Assembly: GCF_004010195.1 (NCBI RefSeq)
Contig: NC_057718.1
Span: 99,782,996-99,846,995, forward strand
Direction of reading: 5' to 3'
DNA from: Chiloscyllium plagiosum
Lineage: Eukaryota
DNA: 64,000 nucleotides
Notes under the pieces: generated by a model
Seen by the model: the letters and a program-made list of their open reading frames with translations, nothing else
Databases searched by the model: none
What the model was told of the DNA's origin: nothing
Position numbers and translations under genes: made by a program
In this document: one piece after another, positions 8,431 to 57,100 of the stretch
How the letters are laid out: every line of letters starts with the position of its first letter
How positions within the stretch are numbered: the stretch's first letter is position 1

Positions 8431-11265
8431 CCCCAGCTGAAATCCCCATGCTTCCACTATTGGAGCATAGGGGGATATTTTATGTGAGTTGCCCTCATTT
8501 TGCCGCATTATATTCCAAGCTTTAATTGTGTTTAGTATTATAGGGTTTTTACAGTGATCCGTACTGATTTTCCTCTTGTCTGGAAATAAAAGGTTAATAA
8601 GTGGGCATTTTACTTGAGAAGCTTCGATGTCCAGCCAGATTGATTGTGGGTCAGATAAGATATGTAACTTAATAGGGAACTTAACTGATATTTCCTAAAG
8701 TCTGGGAAGTCCAATCCTCCCCTTGCCTGTGGAAGCTGTAGCTTCTTCAACTTAATGAGGGGCCGTCTATGATTCCAGATAAAGGAACCCAACCAGACAT
8801 ATAATTTACGTAGTGCCAGCCTTGGCAGCATCACCAGAAGCATTCTCACAGGGTATAGGAGACAGGGCAGGACATTCATTTTAATTAGTGCTATTCTACC
8901 CAGCCAGGAAATTGGAAGGTCTCCCCATCGCTGGAGGTCCTGCCTTATCCTTTCCAGTAAATGCACAAAGTTAGCCTTGTATAACTGACCAAATACTGGG
9001 GTAATAAAAATGCCTAAATATAAGAAACCCTCCAGGGACCAATGAAAGGGAAAGTGGGATCCGTCCACTAAGTAGGGTATCATAGCAAGGCCGCCCATTG
9101 TCATAGACCCCGATTTTGAGAAATTAATTTTATAGCCTGAGAATGCGCTAAATGTATTAATAACTTGGATTAGGCGAGGTACGTACATCAAAGGATTACT
9201 GAGGAATAGAAGAATATCATCTGCATAAAGGGTAATTTTATGTTTACCTGTACCAATCCTCGGGGCCATTATATTAGGATCAGCCCGTATAGCTTCTGCT
9301 AGTGGTTCAATTATTAGCATAAATAATAATGGTGAGAGCGGACATCCCTGATGGCAGCCCCTACCCACACTGAAGCTATCCGAACCTAATCCGTTGGTAA
9401 CCACAACTGCTTTGGGATCACTATACAATGTTGAGACCATTTGGTAAACACCTTTCCAACGCCAAACCTTTCCAATGTGTAAAACAAATATGACCATTCA
9501 ACCCTATCGAATGCTTTTTCTGCGTCTAATGAAACCACTACTCCTGGTATCTTTCCCTGATGGCAGGCTTGAATCATATTCAAAGCCCTTCTAATATTAT
9601 TGGATGATCTACGGCCCTTAATAAACCCCGTCTGATCCTCCTTTATAATATGTGGCAGTACCCTTTCTAGTCTCGATGCTAATGTTTTAGAAAGGATTTT
9701 AAAATCTACATTTAGCAAGGATATTGGTCTGTATGACGTACAATCTTCTTTTTCAAGGATAAGAGAGATATTTGCCTCTTTCAGTGAAGGCGGGAGACAG
9801 CCCTGACTATATGCATAGTTATACATGTCCATAAGTGGACCAGCCAATATGTCTGTAAATTCTTTATAGAATTCAGCTTGAAAACCATCTGGGCCAGGTG
9901 TCTTACCGCTCTGAAGTTGCCTGATTGCGTCTATTATTTCTTGGACTGTTAGGGGAACATTTAAGACTGATACCTGTTCCGGAGTTAGGCCCGGAAAAGT
10001 CAAATTTTTAAAAAATGATTGCATCCTCCTAGTCCTGTCTTCACAATTCTGCGATTTATATAAATCAGAATAAAATTTTCTAAAGATTGCATTAATCTTT
10101 TTATGACCATGAGTCAAAATACCCGTACTTTCCTTGATCAAAGTGATAGTTTCAGGGGCCTTTTTTTTCTTTGCAAGAAATGCTAAGTATCTACCCGGTT
10201 TGTTGCCAAATTCATAGAACCTTTGTTTTGCAAATAATATTTCCCTCTTAGCCGTTTGGGTAAGCGTAGTGTTTAGAGCTGTCCTAAGGGCCGTAATCCT
10301 TTGCAATTTAATTATAGAAGGTCTATCAGCGTATGCTGTTTCAGCTGCTTTTAAGCGAGCTTCGAGCAGACGCTGTTGTTCTCCCTTTACTTTTGTCTGG
10401 GTCACTGATCAAACCTCGCGTGTAAGCTTTGATGGTCTCCCACATCATTGATAGGTTGCTAGCTGTACCTAAATTAATTTCTAAAAAAGTTTTAAATTCT
10501 TGAGAGAAGTACTTTACAAATTTACTGTCTTTCATTAGGAAGGGGTCCGTACGCTAATGCCGAGGGGATGTCCCGTTGTTCCTCGCCTTGGTTTCCATAT
10601 ATACGGCAGCATGATTAGAAATTGCTATACTATCTATTTTACAGGATGATATGGAATTTTAAAAAATTGAGGGGACAAAAAACATATCAATTCTGGTATG
10701 ACATTTATGTGGATTAGAGTAAAAAGAAAAATCTCTGCCCTGTGGATGAAGACATCTCCATACATCTACTAATCCTAATTCTTTGTTCAGATCCACCAAT
10801 TGTCTAGATCTAGGAGATACTCCTGCAGTACTCTTGGGAATCCTATCTATTTCCGGATCCATAATACAATTAAAGTCTCCCCTATAATTGTATGACGGGC
10901 ACCAAGAGCCATCAATATTGAGAAGGCTTCCGTTATAAATATAAAGGGGTGTGCCGGGGGGGGGGCAGTACAAATTTAAAATCCCATATTCCTCTCCATT
11001 TATAAGGGCTTTAATCAGAATATATCATCCAGATTCGTCTTTTATCTGATTTAGGATTTTGAAAGGGAAATTCTTCCGAACAAGAATAACAAATCTACCC
11101 TGTTGTAATTTCAAGTGTTCTTTATTCAACAGGTGTGTCTCCTGTAGGGAGAGCTATATCAACTCTTTCTTTCTTAAGATTTGATAATATTTCCTTCCTT
11201 TTGACTGGCGAATTACTCCCCTTGACATTCCAGGTGCACCACTTAACCGACTTATCAACCATAAT
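8431..11265 (-). pseudogene. L1 ORF2 (AP endonuclease + reverse transcriptase), frameshifted, C-terminus missing
   Basis: Endonuclease motifs TWNVKG, GDFN and TRIDMFF. RT motifs PGPDG, YRPISLLNVDFKILSK, SLDAEKAFDRVEW, QGCPLSPLLF and LYADD. These are spread over track ORFs 11122-11343, 10659-10973, 10341-10535, 9386-10405 and 8610-9497. Confidence 0.95.
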
Positions 11266-17789: not shown

Positions 17790-19867
17790 ACTTTCAATGT
17801 TTCTACGTCTTAGGTGTAAATCTACATTCAACCTGTTAATGAGCAGCTCTGGTCACTCACTTCCACATGTCAACATTGGCATCCACAACGACTTGTGAGT
17901 TATCCCCCTCAGAAGATCCAATAGCCTTCTGAAAGTGTTGAAATATAATGGGCTAGATTTTGTAACAGAAATATTGGTGAGTCTAAATTGGACAGCAATT
18001 TCCAGCAGCTGTGCCCTATTAAACATAGAAATCGAAAGGTTTCTGTCTAATATACACTGTTTAACAGCTTTAAATTGAGGGGTGTTAGATATAGGACAAT
18101 GTCAGAGGGAGTTTCTTTACTCAGAGTAGTAGGGGCGTGGAATGCTCTGCCTGCAACAGTACTGGACTCGCCAACTTAAAGGGCATTTAAATGGTCATTG
18201 GATAAACATATGGATCCAAATGGAATAGTGTAGGTTAGATGGACTTCAGATTGATTTTACAGGTCGGCACAACATTGAGGGCCGAAGGGCCTGTACTGCG
18301 CTGTAATCTTCTATGTTCTATATCCATCAGCTTCGCAGTAAAGATCTATCACTGACAGATTCAGCATTCCGATGATGGGTCTGACATTCCTGTAATTAAT
18401 CCATGAGATGCCCATTCAATAGGCCAGAAATTATTAAGGGTTATTCATTCACTTGTAAGCTTTTTAACAAGAGTGGCTTTTAATAATCACTTCCAAACAG
18501 CCTGACACTCTAAATTAACTCTAACAAATGTTGCTTCTTATTCTTTCAGATGTTAGTTATTGTCAGAGATTTAACAAATTGGCAATAATTGAACAACACT
18601 TCCTGTTTGACTCCTCCTCTTCCTTTCTGTCACACAATCTAATCTTTCGTTGTCACGCACTTTATTTTGCTTTCTGTGCCCAAATTGATTTTCATTTCAA
18701 TGTTCCAGCCATCTCATGTCAGTTCAGACTCTGCACTGCTCTTGAATGGTTTTTCAATCTGGTTGTGTATGGAGCTGCGATGTTTGTCCAGCCAGCTCCC
18801 AGTTGTACTGCTGCTGTGGGACTTCCTGTTCCAAAAACTCACCTCAGCCCCAACAACACATACGCAAAAGTGCACAGGTGATTGGAGGTGTTTAGTTCAT
18901 TGACCACCCACAGCCCTGTCATGGTAAACGGTAAAATAGTGCAGCAAATGAGAATGGTATCCTAGCCTCTGGTGCATACTTCAGAAAGCCCTGCATCCTT
19001 ACCCATTTGGTATCGGTAACATGAACTAATACCAAGAAGGATTGGTGGCAGTGATTCTCCCCTAGGTGTTCCCTGTAGTTCCAGTAAATGATCACAACAA
19101 TGTAAAGCGCTCTGAGCAACTGTACCCTCAAACCAATTATCATCCTAGCTCTCCCGGACTCAGGCGTCATTTTCTGTGTTTGAAATGTCCGCAGAGCAAC
19201 AAGCACATTAACCAGAAATGTAGTTACACATTCTGAATTCCTAGAAGCAAGAACATTGTTCAGAGAAAAAAAAATCTCATTTATGACTCCATGCTCTGGC
19301 TATAACCTGTCATTTTAATCTAATTTATTTTTACGGCTCAAACTTTTCATTATGAAGTGTCAGCCTATTCTGGACTGAAAACAAATTAATGTTGCAAATT
19401 CAAAAGACTTTAATCATGCAGCCGCAAGCAGAACGTGCTCCAATTCTCAGACCCAATTTCACATTACAATCCATGGCTTTTATTCAAAACCTTTGTTATT
19501 TTTATTCTAATAGGGAGATAATGTATTAAAGCTCCCTGTCGATGACCACATTTGATTCCTGCATGTGCTGTGATATTCAGAAGTTCTTTGCAACACTGAG
19601 TGTATGCGCACAGCCGTAAACCTTTTGAGATTTTCAGCTGCCCCTACACCCTAAACTCTGGGTCCTGGATGCACCCCCAGGCATTAATGACCGAGGAAGG
19701 TGCACTTGTAATGTTGGCAAACAGGTCACGCATTAACCTGCAAATCCTTCCCATGCACACTTTCCCATTCCCGCTTAAGAGCAGGAGAAATTCCAGGTTA
19801 GCCATATGAAGGAATGAATACTGGAGCCTTTACTGTCACTGACCATGGCCCTAAACATGTCTGTAAA

Positions 19868-20367
19868 NNNNNNNNNNNNNNNNNNNNNNNNNNNNNNNNN
19901 NNNNNNNNNNNNNNNNNNNNNNNNNNNNNNNNNNNNNNNNNNNNNNNNNNNNNNNNNNNNNNNNNNNNNNNNNNNNNNNNNNNNNNNNNNNNNNNNNNNN
20001 NNNNNNNNNNNNNNNNNNNNNNNNNNNNNNNNNNNNNNNNNNNNNNNNNNNNNNNNNNNNNNNNNNNNNNNNNNNNNNNNNNNNNNNNNNNNNNNNNNNN
20101 NNNNNNNNNNNNNNNNNNNNNNNNNNNNNNNNNNNNNNNNNNNNNNNNNNNNNNNNNNNNNNNNNNNNNNNNNNNNNNNNNNNNNNNNNNNNNNNNNNNN
20201 NNNNNNNNNNNNNNNNNNNNNNNNNNNNNNNNNNNNNNNNNNNNNNNNNNNNNNNNNNNNNNNNNNNNNNNNNNNNNNNNNNNNNNNNNNNNNNNNNNNN
20301 NNNNNNNNNNNNNNNNNNNNNNNNNNNNNNNNNNNNNNNNNNNNNNNNNNNNNNNNNNNNNNNNNNN
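19868..20367. other. Assembly gap, 500 N
   Basis: A run of exactly 500 N, which suggests a fixed-size scaffolding join. Confidence 0.99.
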
Positions 20368-20409
20368 CTGACAGGAGCAAACATCTTTTTACACAACGAG
20401 TTGTCTTCC

Positions 20410-20770
20410 AGTTCTGAGGAAGGGTCACCAGACCCGAAATGTTAACTCTGATCTCTCTCCACAGCTGCTGCCAGACCTACTGAGCATTTCCAGCAACATC
20501 TATAGACAATAGACAATAGGTGCAGGAGTAGGCCATCCTGCCCTTCGAGCCTGCACCACCATTCATTATGATCATGGCTGATCATCCTCAATCAGTGTCC
20601 TGTTCCTGCCTTATCTCCATAACCCTTTGATTCCACTATTCTTGAGAGCTCTATCCAACTCTTTCTTAAACTAATGCAGAGACTGGGCCTCTACTGCCCT
20701 CTGGGGCAGAGCATTCCACACACATGAAGGTTTTTGTTTCTGATTTACAGTGTCCGCAGTTCTTTCAGTA
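20410..20770 (+). mobile_element. PLE pLTR family B fragment with hammerhead motif, split by a CR1 fragment (about 20503-20722, minus)
   Basis: AGTT-CTGAGGA-A-GGGTC-ACCA-GACCC-GAAA-TG-TT-AACT at 20410-20447. The pLTR tail resumes at about 20730 (tttctgatttacagtgtccgcagttctt). Confidence 0.75.
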
Positions 20771-20825: not shown

Positions 20826-21049
20826 GCTGAAAATATGTTGCTGGAAAAGCGCAGCAGGTCAGGCAGCATCCAGGGAACAGGGGAATCGACGTTTCGGGCA
20901 TAAGCCCTTCTTCAGGAATGGCTGAAGAAGGGCTTATGCCCGAAACGTCGATTCTCCTGTTTCCTGGATGCTGCCTGACCTGCTGCGCTTTTCCAGCAAC
21001 ACATTTTCAGCTCTGATCTCCAGCATCTGCAGACCTCACTTTCTCCTCA
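20826..21049. mobile_element. PLE pLTR mini-palindrome, family A, with two opposed hammerhead cores
   Basis: Arms about 20826-20915 and 20922-21012. Core CTGAAGA-A-GGGC-TTAT-GCCC-GAAACGTC at 20922-20949, mirrored on the minus strand. TSD gggatacaatrgctg at 20815-20829 and 21050-21064. Confidence 0.9.
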
Positions 21050-22189: not shown

Positions 22190-23190
22190 TGATTGATTGA
22201 TTGTTTGATTGTCACATGTACTGAAGTACAGTGAAAAGCTTTGTTCATGAGCAATCCAGGCAGATCCTAGTAAGCAAGAACGAACAGATCAGAGAGACTT
22301 AGACAGAGGTATACAGGTTACATTGCACAGGCAACACCTAGGGGAGATCAGTGTTAGCAAGATCATTGTTTGAGGCTCGAGGGTCCATTCATCAGTCTAA
22401 TAACAGCTGGGAAGAAGCTGTTCCTGAACCTGTAGGTGCGTGTGTTCAGGCTTCTATACCTTCTGCCTGATGGAAGAGGTTGTAGGAGATGATTACCAGG
22501 GTGTGAGGGTCTTTGATGATGTTGGCAGCTTTTCTGTGGCAGTGAGCCGTGTAAATGGAGTCCATGGATGGGAGGTTGGCTCCTGTGATGGTCTGGGCTG
22601 TGAACATCACCCTCTCTAGTTTCTCACAGTCCAGGCCAGAATAGTTGCCGTATCAGGCCATAATACACCCGGACAGTATGCTCTCAGTGGTGCAGCTGTA
22701 GAAGTTGGTGAGGGCCCTTGTGGACATGCTGAATTTCCTGAGCTGCCTGAGGAAGAAGTGGCAATGTTGTGCCTTCCCGACCGTCACATCTACGTGGGAA
22801 GGCCAGGACAGGTTGTCGGTTATCGTCACTCCGAGGAACTTGACGCTCTCCACTCTCTCCACCTCCACTCCTTTAATGTAGCTGGGGACATGTCCTCCTC
22901 CTTTCTTTCTGAAGTCAATGATCAGCTCTTTAGTTTTGCCGATGTTGAGAGAGAGGTTGTTCTCATTGCATCACGTTACCAAGCCTTCTATATCCCTTCT
23001 GTATCTAACAACTCATCGTTGTTAGATATCTGGGATTAGTGGTGCTGGAAGAGCACAGCAGTTCAGGCAGCATCCAAGGAGCAGCGAAATTGACGTTTCG
23101 GCGTTGTTAGATATCCGTCCTATTACAGTGGGGTCAGCAGCGAACTTGTAGATGGCGTACATTCGGAATTTGGCAACACAGTCGTGGGTG
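22190..23190 (-). mobile_element. Rex1/Babar-type LINE 3' fragment
   Basis: ERVESVKFLGVTITDNLSW..KAQ..FFLRQLRKFSMS..LTNFY.CT.ESILSGCI in ORF 22653-22868(-). YKFAAD is an RT remnant near 23140. (TTGA)n tail at about 22188-22210. Confidence 0.8.
23031..23101 (-). mobile_element. 71-bp PLE pLTR family A fragment with a perfect 14-bp TSD
   Basis: cgttgttagatatc at 23017-23030 and 23102-23115 flanks the pLTR sequence. Confidence 0.85.
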
Positions 23191-23603: not shown

Positions 23604-24340
23604 CAAAAGAGAAAATGCTGGAAAATCTCAGCAGGTCTGGCAGCAGCTGTAAGGAGAGAAAAGAGCTGACATTTCGAGTCTAACTGACTCTTTGTCAAAG
23701 CTAAAAAAAAGGGAGAAATAGGGAGGTATTTATACGAGGCTGAGAGCAGGTGAGTCCTGGCTCCAGAAGCAAAGGTAATAATAAAGAGGTGATAATGACA
23801 GTGCACAGAGAGATTATAGGGAGATTAGGAGCTGTGAATGACCAAGGCTGAAGCCAGGGCTATGTGACAAAATATGTGGGGGATGGGAGGGAATGGGTGA
23901 AGCAGAGGCAAAATAGAAAACAGGGGAGAAGGGTAGCAAAGGGGAAAGAGGAGAGAAAAAGGGTAATGAGAGAGCGGGGAATGAGAGAAAGAGAGACAAT
24001 CAAGAAATAAGAGGTACAGAACAGTGAAAAAGCATATTAAAAAAAGGATAAATAAAATAAATGAAATAAAATTACAGAGCAGAATGAAAACAGAGGGGTC
24101 GAGATGGGATAATCATCTGAAGTTGTTGAATTCAATGTTGAGACTGGCAGGCTGTAACGGGCCTAGTCGGAAGATGAGATGCTGTTCCTCCAGTTTGCGT
24201 TGAGCTTCACTGGAACATTGCAGCAGGCCAAGGACAGACATGTGGGTATGGGAGCAGCATTGGGTGTTGAAGTGGCAAGCCACGGGAAGGACTGGGACCT
24301 GATTGCGTACAGACCGAAGGTGCTCAGCAAAGCGATCACC
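23604..24340 (-). mobile_element. Penelope-like element (Neptune-type) 3' end: GIY-YIG C-terminus, pyrimidine-rich UTR and pLTR
   Basis: ORF 24113-24388(-): DRFAEHLRSVR...PVACHFN...HMSVLGLLQC...RKLEEQHLIFRLG.LQP..LNIEFNNFR. Hammerhead-like motif at 23664-23702. Confidence 0.9.
23664..23702 (-). ncRNA. Minimal hammerhead-ribozyme motif with U3-A8 core variant (PLE family D)
   Basis: Minus strand reads AGCU-UUGACAA-A-GAGUC-AGUUA-GACUC-GAAA-UG-UC-AGCU, with perfect stems I and II. Confidence 0.65.
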
Positions 24341-24660
24341 AGAGACGGGCAATAAATACTGGCCCAGCCAGCAATGCTCACATCCCATGAATAAATTTGT
24401 AATAAGTCAGTGCCGAGTATAGTACAAAGTGTATTTAAACAATGAGCAAGAAATTTCACTTGCTAGAGCCTTAAGAAACATTTAGGCTGTGGGTAAGATT
24501 GTTGAAGCAACAGAGGGAAACCTTGATATCTCAGTTAAAAAATAAATCTCAGTACCACGCAACTAAAACCAAGAGAATGCCTCTTTTCTAACAATCTCAT
24601 CCTTGTTTCATATCAGAAAAACTGGCTCTATGTCACGTTTTCTCAGATAATTTAGAGCCA

Positions 24661-54160: not shown

Positions 54161-57100
54161 TCCTCACGGGGGAGAGGGCCCAGCAAGAGGTCCTTGTCCA
54201 CATTGGAACCAACGACATAGGAAGGGAAAAGGTTGAGATTCTGAAGGGAAATTACAGAGAGCTAGGCAGGAATTTAAAAAGGAGGTCCTCGAGAGTAGTA
54301 ATATCTGGATTACTCCCAGTGCTACGAGCTAGTGAGGGCAGGAATAGGAGGACAGAGCAGATGAATGCATGGCTGAGGAGCTGGTGTATGGGAGAAGGAT
54401 TCACATTTTTGGATCATTGGAATCTCTTTTGGGGTAGAAGTGACCTGTACAAGAAGGACGGATTGCACCTAAATTGGAAGGGACTAATATACTGGCAGGG
54501 AGATTTGCTAGAACTGCTTGGGAGGATTTAAGCTAGTAAGGTCGGTGGGTGGGACCCAGGGAGATAGTGAGGCAAGAGATCGATCTGAGACGGGTACAGC
54601 TGAGAACAGAAGTGAGTCAAACAGTCAGGGCAGGCAGGGACAAGGTAGGACTAATAAATTAAACTGCATTTATTTCAATGCAAGGGACCTAACAGGGAAG
54701 GCAGCTGAACTCAGGGACATCATAGCAATTACAGAAACATGGCTCAGGGATGGGCAAGACCGGCAGCTTAATGTTCCAGGATACAAATGCTACAGAAAGG
54801 ATGGCAAGAGAGGAGGGGGAGTGGCATTTTTGATAAGGGATAGCATTACAGCTGTGCTGAGGGAGGATATTCCCGGAAATACACTCAGGGAAGTTATTTG
54901 GGTGGAACTGAGAAATAAGAAAGGGATGATCACCTTATTGGGATTGTATTATAGACCCCCTAATAGTCAGAGGGAAATTGAGAAACAAACTTGAAAGGTG
55001 ATCCCAGCTATCTGTAAGAATATTAGGGTGGTTATGGTAGGGGATTTTAACTTTCCAAACATAGACTGGGACTGCCAGAATGTTAAGGGTTTAGATGGAG
55101 AAGAATTTGTTAAGTGTGTACAAGAAAATTTAGAAAAGGATAGACCAGATCTAAAAGTTGAAGTTCTAAATTGGAGAAAGGCCAATTTTGACGGTATTAG
55201 GCAAGAACTTTCAAAAGCTGATTGGGGGCAGATGTTGGCAGGTAAAGGGACGGCTGGAAAATGGGAAGCCTTCAGAAATGAGATAATAAGAATCCAGAGA
55301 AAATATATTCCTATCAGGGTGAAAGGAAAGGCTGATAGGTATAGGGAATGCTGGATGACTAAAGAAATTAAGGGTTTGGTTAAGAAAAAGAAGAAGCATA
55401 TGTAAGGTGTAGACAGGATAAATCAAGTAAATACTTAGAAGAGTATAAAGGAAGTAGGAGTATACTAAAGAGGGAAATCAGGAGGACAAAAAGGGGACAT
55501 GAGATAGCTTTGGCAAATAGAATTAAGGAGAATCCAAAGAGTTTTTACAAATATATTAAGGACAAAAGGGTAACTAGGGAGAGAATAGGGCCCCTCAAAG
55601 ATCAGCAAGGCGGCCTTTTTGTGGAGCTGCAGAAAATGGGGGAGATACTAAATGAATATTTTACATCAGTATTTACTGTGGAAAAGGATATGGAAGATAT
55701 AGACTGTAGGGAAATAAGTGGTGACATCTTGCAAAATGTCCAGATTACAGAGGAGGAAGTGCTGGATGTCTTGAAACGGGCAAAGGTGGATAAATTCCCA
55801 GGACCTGATCAGGTGTACCTGAGAACTCTGTGGGAAGCTAGAGAAGTGATTGCTGGGCCTCTTGCTGAGATATTTGTATCATTGATAGTCACATGTGAGG
55901 TGCCGGAAGACTGGAGGTTGGCTAGTGTGGTGTCACTGTTTAAGAGGGGCGGTAAGACCAAGCCAGCGAACTATAGACCAGAGAGCCTGTCCTCGGTGGT
56001 GGGCAAGTTGTTGGAGGGAATCCTGAGGGACAGGATGTACATGTATTTGGAAAGGCAAAATCTGATTAGGGATAGTCAACATTGCTTTGTGCGTGGGAAA
56101 TCATGTCTCACAAACTTGATTGAGTTTTTTGAAGAAGTAACAAAGATGATTGATGAGGGCAGAGCAGTAGATGTGATCTAGTTGGACTTCAGTATGGCGT
56201 TCGACAAGGTTCCCCATGGGAGACTGATAAGCAAGGTTAGATCTCACGGAATACAGGGAGAACTTGCCATTTGGATACAGAACTAGCTCAAAGGTAGAAG
56301 ACAGAGGGTGGTGGTGGAAGATTGTTTTTCAGATTGGAGGCCTGTAACCAGTGGAGTGCCACAAGGATCGGTGCTGGGTCCACTACTTTTTGTCATTTAC
56401 ATAAAGATTTGGATGTGAGCATAAGAGGTACAGTTAGTAAGTTTGCAGATGACACCAAAATTGGAGGTGTAGTGAAGAGCAAAGAGGGTTACCTCAGATT
56501 ACAACAGGATCTGGACCAGATGGGCCAATGGGCTGAGAAGTAGCAGGTGGAGTTTAATTCAGATAAATGCGAGATGCTGCATTTTGGGAAAGCAAATCTT
56601 AACAGGACTTATACACTTAATGGTAAGGTCCGAGGGAGTGTTGCTGAACAAAGAGACCTTGGAGTGCAGGCTCATAGCTCCTTGAAAGTGGAGTCGCAGG
56701 TAGATAGGTTAGTGAAGGCGGCGTTTGGTATGCTTTCCTTTATTGGTCAGAGTATTGAGTACAGGAGTTGGGAGGTCATGTTGCGGCTGTACAGACTGTT
56801 GGTTAGGCCACTGTTGGAATATTGCGTGCAATTCTGGTCTCCTTCCTATCGGAAAGATGTTGTGAAACTTGAAAGAGTTCAGAAAAGATTTACAATGATG
56901 TTGCCAGGGTTGGAGGGTTTGAGCTACAGGGAGAGGCGGAACAGGCTGGGGTTGTTTTCCCTGGAGTGTCGGAGGCTGAGGGGTGAGCTTATAGAGGTTT
57001 ACAAAATTATGAGGGGCATGGATAGGGTAAATAGGCAAAGTCTTTTTCCTGGGGTCGGGGAGTCCAGAACTAGAGGGCATAGGTTTAGGGTGAGAGGGGT

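What the first reader, a model, noticed from the sequence alone, without database searches (positions are those of the whole stretch)
23664..23702. Hammerhead with a compensatory U3-A8 catalytic core
The minus strand reads AGCU UUGACAA A GAGUC AGUUA GACUC GAAA UG UC AGCU. The usual CUGAnGA is UUGACAA, so both partners of the C3-G8 tertiary Watson-Crick pair have changed together (U3-A8). Stems I and II remain perfect and the GUC triplet is retained. U3-A8 is a known tolerated natural variant, and strict CUGAnGA searches would miss it. It lies downstream of a GIY-YIG C-terminus, where a pLTR is expected. The helix III position reads AUGU rather than ACGU, probably through CpG decay.
Basis: partly seen in the sequence, partly recalled or inferred. 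Interest (0 to 1): 0.7.

Follow-up and report, generated by a model that had tools for sequence, protein, structure and literature searches.

The report
Swapped-core hammerhead in Penelope repeat
The swapped U-A core pair is the normal form in a family of over 3,000 copies of a Penelope-type jumping gene in this likely shark genome, a variant already published for blood-fluke Penelope elements; this decayed copy is probably inert, and the family's copy ends suggest the motif is the very start of an RNA that is usually copied uncut.

Summary
U3-A8 is the family state. Among 3,359 exact-pattern matches in G000, 3,087 are U3-A8, while a sister family is C3-G8 (76 of the first 100). AUGU is CpG decay of ACGU (38 CG, 18 CA, 15 TG of 73). 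Helix II is perfect only in this copy; the family has a G-U wobble. U3-A8 is published for natural hammerheads (PMC3088659) and for Schistosoma Penelope elements (PMC4209133), so this is a new member of a known kind. Extra result: 32 of 94 anchor-picked copies begin exactly at the first base of helix I, about 32 nt after a TATA box, and 1 of 94 at the cleavage site. The motif is therefore likely the RNA's 5' end, usually copied uncut. A C3-G8 control family also lacks a cleavage-site peak. Cleavage is untested. The scan noted this family before, in this genome and others.

The parts
23664..23702 (-). Minimal type I hammerhead motif with U3-A8 core
   Evidence: Sequence; family tallies
23699..23702 (-). 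Helix I 5' strand (AGCU); its A at 23702 is the inferred transcription start
   Evidence: 32 of 94 family copies start exactly here; most frequent loose-end site in contigs of coded organisms F and E
23692..23698 (-). Core U3 U4 G5 A6 C7 A8 A9 (U3 = 23698, A8 = 23693)
   Evidence: Sequence; U3 47 of 48, A8 48 of 48 in the family
23676..23691 (-). Bulged A (23691) and helix II with 5-nt loop; GAGUC here, GGGUC in most of the family
   Evidence: G at position 10.2 in 45 of 48 copies, A in 2
23668..23675 (-). GAAA, helix III tetramer (AUGU here, palindromic ACGU in the family) and GUC triplet; predicted cut between 23668 and 23667
   Evidence: CG 38, CA 18, TG 15, other 2 of 73 readable copies
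23664..23667 (-). Helix I 3' strand (AGCU)
   Evidence: Sequence
23727..23734 (-). TATA box (TATAAATA), first T 32 nt before the motif
   Evidence: present at -28 to -34 in 53 of 68 upstream-extended copies. Promoter function inferred
23604..23663 (-). pLTR part after the motif, ending at the first of the family's two 3' end points (inferred reverse-transcription start; this copy lacks the roughly 35-nt tail)
   Evidence: 3' ends bimodal: 56 of 94 short, 38 of 94 with tail
23703..24112 (-). 3' UTR / upstream part of the pLTR, pyrimidine-rich
   Evidence: Shared at 86-92% with the longer copies among the other 29 loci; motif follows the endonuclease at similar spacing in most of 30 endonuclease-picked loci
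24113..24342 (-). C-terminal half of the GIY-YIG endonuclease with stop codon; the copy is 5'-truncated here, just after the catalytic YIG motif
   Evidence: the 75-aa piece alone has no Pfam hit

Best explanation
This is a 5'-truncated, likely inert copy (about 740 nt) of a Penelope-like retroelement family with over 3,000 copies, whose terminal repeat carries a minimal hammerhead motif in which U3-A8 replaces C3-G8 family-wide, likely as a compensatory change that kept the predicted self-cleaving fold in the source element. Shown: sequence, family state, link to the endonuclease, CpG decay, distribution of copy ends. Inferred mechanism: the pLTR promoter (TATA at about -32) starts the RNA at the first base of helix I. 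The element's RT primes on nicked DNA and starts inside the RNA at one of two sites about 100 and 135 nt downstream. It mostly runs to the uncut RNA 5' end, giving short inserts with target-site duplications or folded-back inverted pairs; less often it gives longer copies like this one. Cleavage would need two motifs pairing through palindromic ACGU, probably with protein help, and would remove the first 35 nt. It is likely slow or late, because cut RNA is rarely the template.
For: U3-A8 3,087, non-U3 226, U3 with non-A8 46. Sister family 76 C3-G8, 8 U3-G8, 6 C3-A8, 0 U3-A8 and 10 other in the first 100 of 925 rows (hand count). All other core positions equal the canonical ones, so the two changes fall on the two partners of one pair. 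Endonuclease homologues carry GIY-YIG and RT domains. 5' ends of 94 copies: 32 at position 0, 58 within -4..+3, 1 at +34..+36. Target-site duplications of 8 nt or more in 16 of 32 non-inverted short copies against a shuffle mean of 1.1, maximum 4. Two 3' end points about 35 nt apart match the tail and two RT starts shown for the anole element, where unprocessed RNA was the main template and the ribozyme needed protein (PMC11167929). U3-A8 is reported as natural and as active in vitro (PMC3088659, passage).
Against: No cleavage data for this family. The change is seen as one event in one lineage here, which is weak covariation evidence. The hammerhead fold is not the predicted minimum even for the majority sequence (1.5 kcal/mol above a misfold as monomer). 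The transcription start is not shown by RNA: the raw-read run gave no start or end pile-up and is a single-cell polyA library unsuited to the question. An untemplated G, the signature of a cap, was not clearly enriched at -1. D. virilis Penelope has a TATA-less internal promoter (PMC2377424, passages), so a TATA-driven start is not the only known layout.
Confidence: 0.82

Rival explanations
1. The motif is a catalytically dead relic in this family: U3 and A8 were fixed by drift in a source element that did not need cleavage, and the complementarity is luck (both are transitions, and a C7-G8 ancestor would have had a mutable CpG).
For: No pile-up of copy ends at the cleavage site (1 of 94). Ribozyme mutants do not impair insertion in vitro (PMC11167929). 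Naiad elements thrive without canonical hammerheads (PMC8557442, passages). Stray U3-A8 double mutants do arise by decay in other families (7 of 98 rows, hand count).
Against: The C3-G8 control family shows the same lack of a cleavage-site peak (1 of 30), so the lack says nothing special about U3-A8. The nine other core positions, helix I, helix II and the ACGU palindrome are all intact in the family majority. No family with C3-A8 or U3-G8 as its majority state turned up among 183 relaxed motifs in the fetched DNA (sample biased to my own queries).
Confidence: 0.12
2. The 5' pile-up marks a 3' splice site (U-tract then AG) or an RT stall at the U-tract rather than a transcription start.
For: A pyrimidine tract followed by AG precedes the core. 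In D. virilis the intron end maps to the 5' end of helix I (PMC4209133). 9 of 94 copies start at +2, right after the AG.
Against: The peak is at 0 (32 copies), so it includes the AG, and no shared upstream exon is attached. T at -1 occurs in only 6 of the 38 copies starting between -4 and 0, so stops do not spread into the U-tract. The control family has no U-tract or AG there, yet 10 of 30 copies start within -2..+3 at an initiator-like TCATTCC.
Confidence: 0.15
3. This copy simply carries two independent post-insertion mutations of a CUGACGA family.
For: Such chance doubles exist in other families.
Against: 92% of 3,359 family matches are U3-A8, and C3-G8 is 1 of the first 100 non-U3 rows.
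Confidence: 0.01

Closest known systems
Minimal type I hammerheads (min-HHR) in pLTRs of metazoan Penelope-like elements, including the U3-A8 variant of Schistosoma mansoni (Cervera and de la Pena 2014, PMC4209133)
   Same: Position in the pLTR, short helix I, bulged base between 9 and 10.1, G10.1-C11.1, palindromic helix III, U3-A8 core (about 1,300 hits in S. mansoni), mostly single motifs of truncated elements.
   Different: Host is a vertebrate, likely a cartilaginous fish. The main text names no shark, and the one searchable supplement has no hit for shark, Callorhinchus or Leucoraja (one supplementary file could not be searched). One homogeneous family here, against heterogeneous hits there.
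Poseidon element of Anolis carolinensis (PAc; Frangieh et al. 2024, PMC11167929)
   Same: Two RT start sites defining an optional tail, uncut RNA as main template, no RNA ends at the cleavage site, hammerhead in the pLTR.
   Different: PAc has C3-G8 and its ORF starts inside the ribozyme. It belongs to the Penelope/Poseidon clade, whereas homologues here carry the cysteine linker of Neptune/Nematis. The paper's main text does not place the transcription start at helix I.
Natural U3-A8 hammerheads (Perreault et al. 2011, PMC3088659)
   Same: Covariation of C3-G8 to U3-A8, described there as natural and previously shown active in vitro.
   Different: The passages I read do not tie those examples to Penelope elements or to minimal dimer-type motifs.
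Neptune-clade EN+ Penelope-like elements (as defined in Craig et al. 2021, PMC8557442)
   Same: C-terminal GIY-YIG, cysteine linker between RT and endonuclease, 5' truncation, inverted 5' copies, optional 30-40 bp tail.
   Different: Clade not tested by a tree; no full-length copy of this family was recovered.

Membership tests
Hammerhead ribozyme (type I, minimal) | Core N3-U4-G5-A6-N7-N8-A9 / G12-A13-A14 / A15.1-U16.1 / H17 with a 3-8 Watson-Crick pair | tested here: met
   all positions canonical except U3 and A8, which pair
Hammerhead ribozyme (type I, minimal) | Helices I and II can form | tested here: met
   4 bp and 5 bp; a competing misfold is predicted 3.2 kcal/mol lower in this copy and 1.5 in the majority form
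Hammerhead ribozyme (type I, minimal) | Palindromic helix III allowing a dimer | tested here: met
   Met for the family (ACGU majority). Weakened in this copy (AUGU; duplex -3.1 to +1.1 kcal/mol)
Hammerhead ribozyme (type I, minimal) | Self-cleavage after the NUH triplet | not testable with these tools
   Indirect only: 1 of 94 inserts starts at the site, as does 1 of 30 in a C3-G8 control; RNA reads uninformative
Rfam hammerhead families | Score at or above gathering threshold | tested here: not met
   No Rfam hit anywhere in the window, including for the canonical C3-G8 minimal motifs it holds
EN+ Penelope-like element | C-terminal GIY-YIG endonuclease | tested here: met
   P0001 aligns at 57-73% to the C-terminal part of homologues; P0003 passes the Pfam GIY-YIG cutoff. 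The window piece alone has no Pfam hit
EN+ Penelope-like element | RT upstream of the endonuclease in the same family | tested here: inconclusive
   Absent from this truncated copy. Longer copies share up to about 1.4 kb upstream whose printed translation reads like RT and resembles homologue P0003 by eye; no profile scan of those copies is available
EN+ Penelope-like element | pLTR with hammerhead, optional 30-40 bp tail, 5' truncation, inverted 5' copies | tested here: met
   tail in 38 of 94; inverted junction in 32 of 64 short copies
Neptune clade | Cysteine (Zn-finger-like) linker between RT and endonuclease, and RT phylogeny | tested here: inconclusive
   Linker seen in homologues P0003 and P0004 and in one family copy's translation; shared with Nematis; no tree built
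Non-LTR retrozyme (non-coding, tandem) | Non-coding unit in close tandem arrays | tested here: not met
   The motif is linked to a coding endonuclease end and copies are dispersed

The most novel reading that the evidence does not exclude
In these elements the hammerhead is the first 39 nt of a TATA-driven, capped mRNA. It would act as a dimer-gated self-decapping switch that decides whether an RNA serves as transposition template (uncut) or is sent to another fate (cut, capless). U3-A8 would have been kept because, with this family's C7 and ACGUCAG, the canonical core would lock into a 6-bp dead-end helix: the predicted gap to the hammerhead fold is 5.1 kcal/mol for C3-G8 against 1.5 for U3-A8. 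The swap would then be negative design against misfolding, not merely a tolerated change.
Probability: 0.25. Interest if true: 0.55.

Novelty: new member of a known kind. Interest (0 to 1): 0.25.

Why it matters
The variant itself adds a vertebrate example to a published list, and strict CUGAnGA screens would miss over 3,000 motifs in this genome. The more useful point concerns the open question of what Penelope hammerheads do. Thousands of insert ends form a fossil record showing that the template RNA usually begins at helix I and is uncut at its 5' motif. That fits the anole in vitro result and sits poorly with a model in which cleaved monomers are the usual template, though cut-and-circularised templates are not excluded. 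It also gives a precise 5' RACE prediction.

Tried and rejected
Rfam scan at gathering thresholds: no hit. Pfam on the 75-aa window piece: no hit. Run search: no RNA holder listed. Laid raw reads: X21 391 reads with no start or end pile-up, X22 none; both single-cell polyA. X13 laid nothing and the X14 letter table was uninformative. Cap signature: single-base inserts at -1 were G 5, C 6, T 3, A 2 among 71 copies starting at or near AGCT, so inconclusive. Looked for a second U3-A8 family with the same helix II start and another loop: 91 of 98 rows are loop variants of this family and 7 are stray doubles of other families (hand count); other helix II types were not searched genome-wide. No target-site duplication visible around the window copy (by eye). 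A profile scan of the RT region of longer family copies is missing, so their RT is read by eye only. Lunse et al. on PLE hammerhead variants (PMC5785218) is not held; I saw only its title in a reference list, and it may already cover fish or shark variants. Term search in bioRxiv 2026.07.22.740005 gave no hit for shark, catalytic core, TATA, transcription start, cartilaginous or promoter. The idea that A8 arose by CpG decay of a C7-G8 ancestor is plausible (C7 in 48 of 48; 7 of the first 100 sister rows have C7-G8) but untested.

Full report
Observation. In hammerhead numbering it has U3 (23698) and A8 (23693), canonical U4 G5 A6 A9, G12 A13 A14, A15.1-U16.1 and C17, a bulged A before a 5-bp helix II, and a 4-bp helix I made of two AGCU strands. 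Rfam reports nothing in the window at gathering thresholds, though a relaxed scan finds eight minimal motifs there, seven of them C3-G8. The 47-nt stretch folds at z -2.4, into a misfold in which the core pairs with the helix III/cleavage strand.

Context. Upstream lies a 75-residue frame ending in a stop 407 nt before the motif. It has no Pfam hit alone, but 12 longer homologues were found among 83 candidates, the named ones from cartilaginous fishes. One passes the GIY-YIG cutoff and also matches RT, and the window piece aligns just after the YIG motif. The copy is therefore 5'-truncated inside the endonuclease at about 24342 and ends at 23604. Two homologues show a cysteine linker before the endonuclease, which Craig et al. 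(PMC8557442, passages read) give for Neptune and Nematis; I built no tree. Longer family copies share up to about 1.4 kb further upstream, with RT-like translation judged by eye.

Is U3-A8 the family state? Yes. With the helix II and loop string fixed, exact matches in G000 number 3,087 for U3-A8, 226 for non-U3 and 46 for U3 with non-A8 (29 G, 10 C, 7 U). In the first 100 of the 226 rows I count 71 C3-A8, 27 G3 or A3, 1 C3-C8 and 1 C3-G8. Several C3-A8 examples are junctions of copies truncated at that spot. I also picked copies by a 44-nt anchor downstream of the motif: the first 94 of 2,063 matches, all on contig C1. Of these, 48 span the motif without indels; U3 is in 47 and A8 in 48. A sister family with the same helix I is C3-G8: 76 C3-G8, 8 U3-G8, 6 C3-A8, 0 U3-A8 and 10 other in the first 100 of 925 rows (hand count). 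Chance doubles exist (7 of 98 rows belong to other families), so one copy could not have settled the question, but the family counts do. Contigs of coded organisms F and C list no other letter at the two positions at 3% or more; F may be the source organism. This is one double change in one lineage, so compensation is likely but rests on thin covariation.

This copy. Helix III is CG in 38, CA in 18, TG in 15 and other in 2 of 73 readable copies, the two-strand pattern of CpG decay, so AUGU is decay. Helix II is perfect only here (G at 10.2 in 45 of 48 copies). The decay weakens the predicted dimer helix (-3.1 to +1.1 kcal/mol) and deepens the misfold (gap 3.2 against 1.5 kcal/mol). No second family motif lies in the window. 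The copy is probably inert.

How the family likely works. The 5' ends of the 94 copies fall as follows: 13 extend 18 nt or more upstream (one of these, L192, is a misalignment), 6 at -4..-1, 32 exactly at the A of the first AGCU, 20 at +1..+3, 17 at +4..+33, 1 at +34..+36 (the cleavage site), 5 beyond. Of 64 copies starting at -4..+10, 32 have an inverted junction, and 16 of the other 32 have a target-site duplication of 8 nt or more (shuffle mean 1.1, maximum 4). The 3' ends are bimodal, 56 short and 38 with a roughly 35-nt tail. A TATA box starts 28-34 nt upstream in 53 of 68 upstream-extended copies, at -32 in the window; optimal TATA spacing near -31 is recalled knowledge. Several sister copies show a CATAAA box at like spacing. 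Contigs from coded organisms F and E have their most frequent loose ends at the same base (47 and 8). The simplest reading is a transcription start at helix I, with RT starting internally and running to the uncut RNA end. Against this: no RNA evidence, no clear cap-derived G, and a possible splice acceptor two bases on. A C3-G8 control family (36,688 anchor matches) has 10 of 30 copies starting within -2..+3 and 1 of 30 at its cleavage site, so the missing cleavage peak is not peculiar to U3-A8. Folding of in-script variants shows that in this family's context C3-G8 would form a 6-bp dead-end helix 5.1 kcal/mol below the hammerhead fold, against 1.5 for U3-A8 and 1.1 for one intact sister copy. 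This is a hint for negative design, from nearest-neighbour energies that ignore tertiary contacts.

What is known. Cervera and de la Pena 2014 (PMC4209133; parts 1-3 of 4 read, one of two supplements searched) describe minimal hammerheads in pLTRs, their low dimer-dependent activity, and a U3-A8 variant with about 1,300 hits in S. mansoni. Perreault et al. 2011 (PMC3088659, passages) report natural U3-A8 and cite earlier in vitro activity; I did not see that earlier paper. Frangieh et al. 2024 (PMC11167929; parts 1-2 of 4 read) show two internal RT starts, the tail, uncut RNA as main template and a protein-assisted ribozyme. Schostak et al. 2008 (PMC2377424, passages) find a TATA-less internal promoter in D. 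virilis Penelope. I also saw passages of PMC6765202 and PMC6155905. Library searches for U3-A8, U3A8, C3U with G8A, and shark with Penelope and hammerhead listed no paper whose title or abstract start points to a shark U3-A8 family or to a start site at helix I, but the library lacks most subscription papers, including Lunse et al.. The scan's earlier unreviewed notes describe the same family in this genome and relatives elsewhere, one already proposing that the motif starts the RNA; I had reached both readings before that call.

Verdict. Real feature, correctly read, ordinary in kind: a new member of the known U3-A8 minimal hammerheads of Penelope-like elements, in a decayed copy. Interest 0.25, carried mostly by the insert-end record and the testable start-site and misfold predictions.

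Noticed in passing
window 5475, 15250, 20408, 20916, 59377 (+); 45294, 20921 (-): Seven more minimal hammerhead motifs with canonical C3-G8 cores from at least three other Penelope families; none reaches an Rfam threshold.
   Followed up: partly
window 20839-20998: Head-to-head inverted pair of short C3-G8 Penelope inserts joined at helix I, the same folded-back structure seen in half of the short U3-A8 family copies.
   Followed up: partly
G000:C1 pairs such as 12001333/12001347, 31380368/31380382, 54483184/54483198: Perfect palindromic insertions centred on the self-complementary AGCT at the inferred RNA start, suggesting that cDNA ends anneal through this tetramer.
   Followed up: partly
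genome-wide, anchor: A C3-G8 Penelope family with at least 36,688 exact 45-nt matches, over ten times the U3-A8 family's count.
   Followed up: partly
window 8610-10408 (-), 55384-56181 (+), 22653-22970 (-): RT fragments of other retroelements (RVT_1 hits, the second one weak) and an ALKBH8_N match; the latter is, from recall, typical of fish LINE ends.
   Followed up: partly
window 19775-20476: Six overlapping stop-free frames adjoining a run of N just before 20370, likely an assembly-gap artefact.
   Followed up: no
L038 and L039: Two separate loci share the same 4-nt insert at an inverted junction before AGCT, possibly a re-mobilised or duplicated inverted unit.
   Followed up: no
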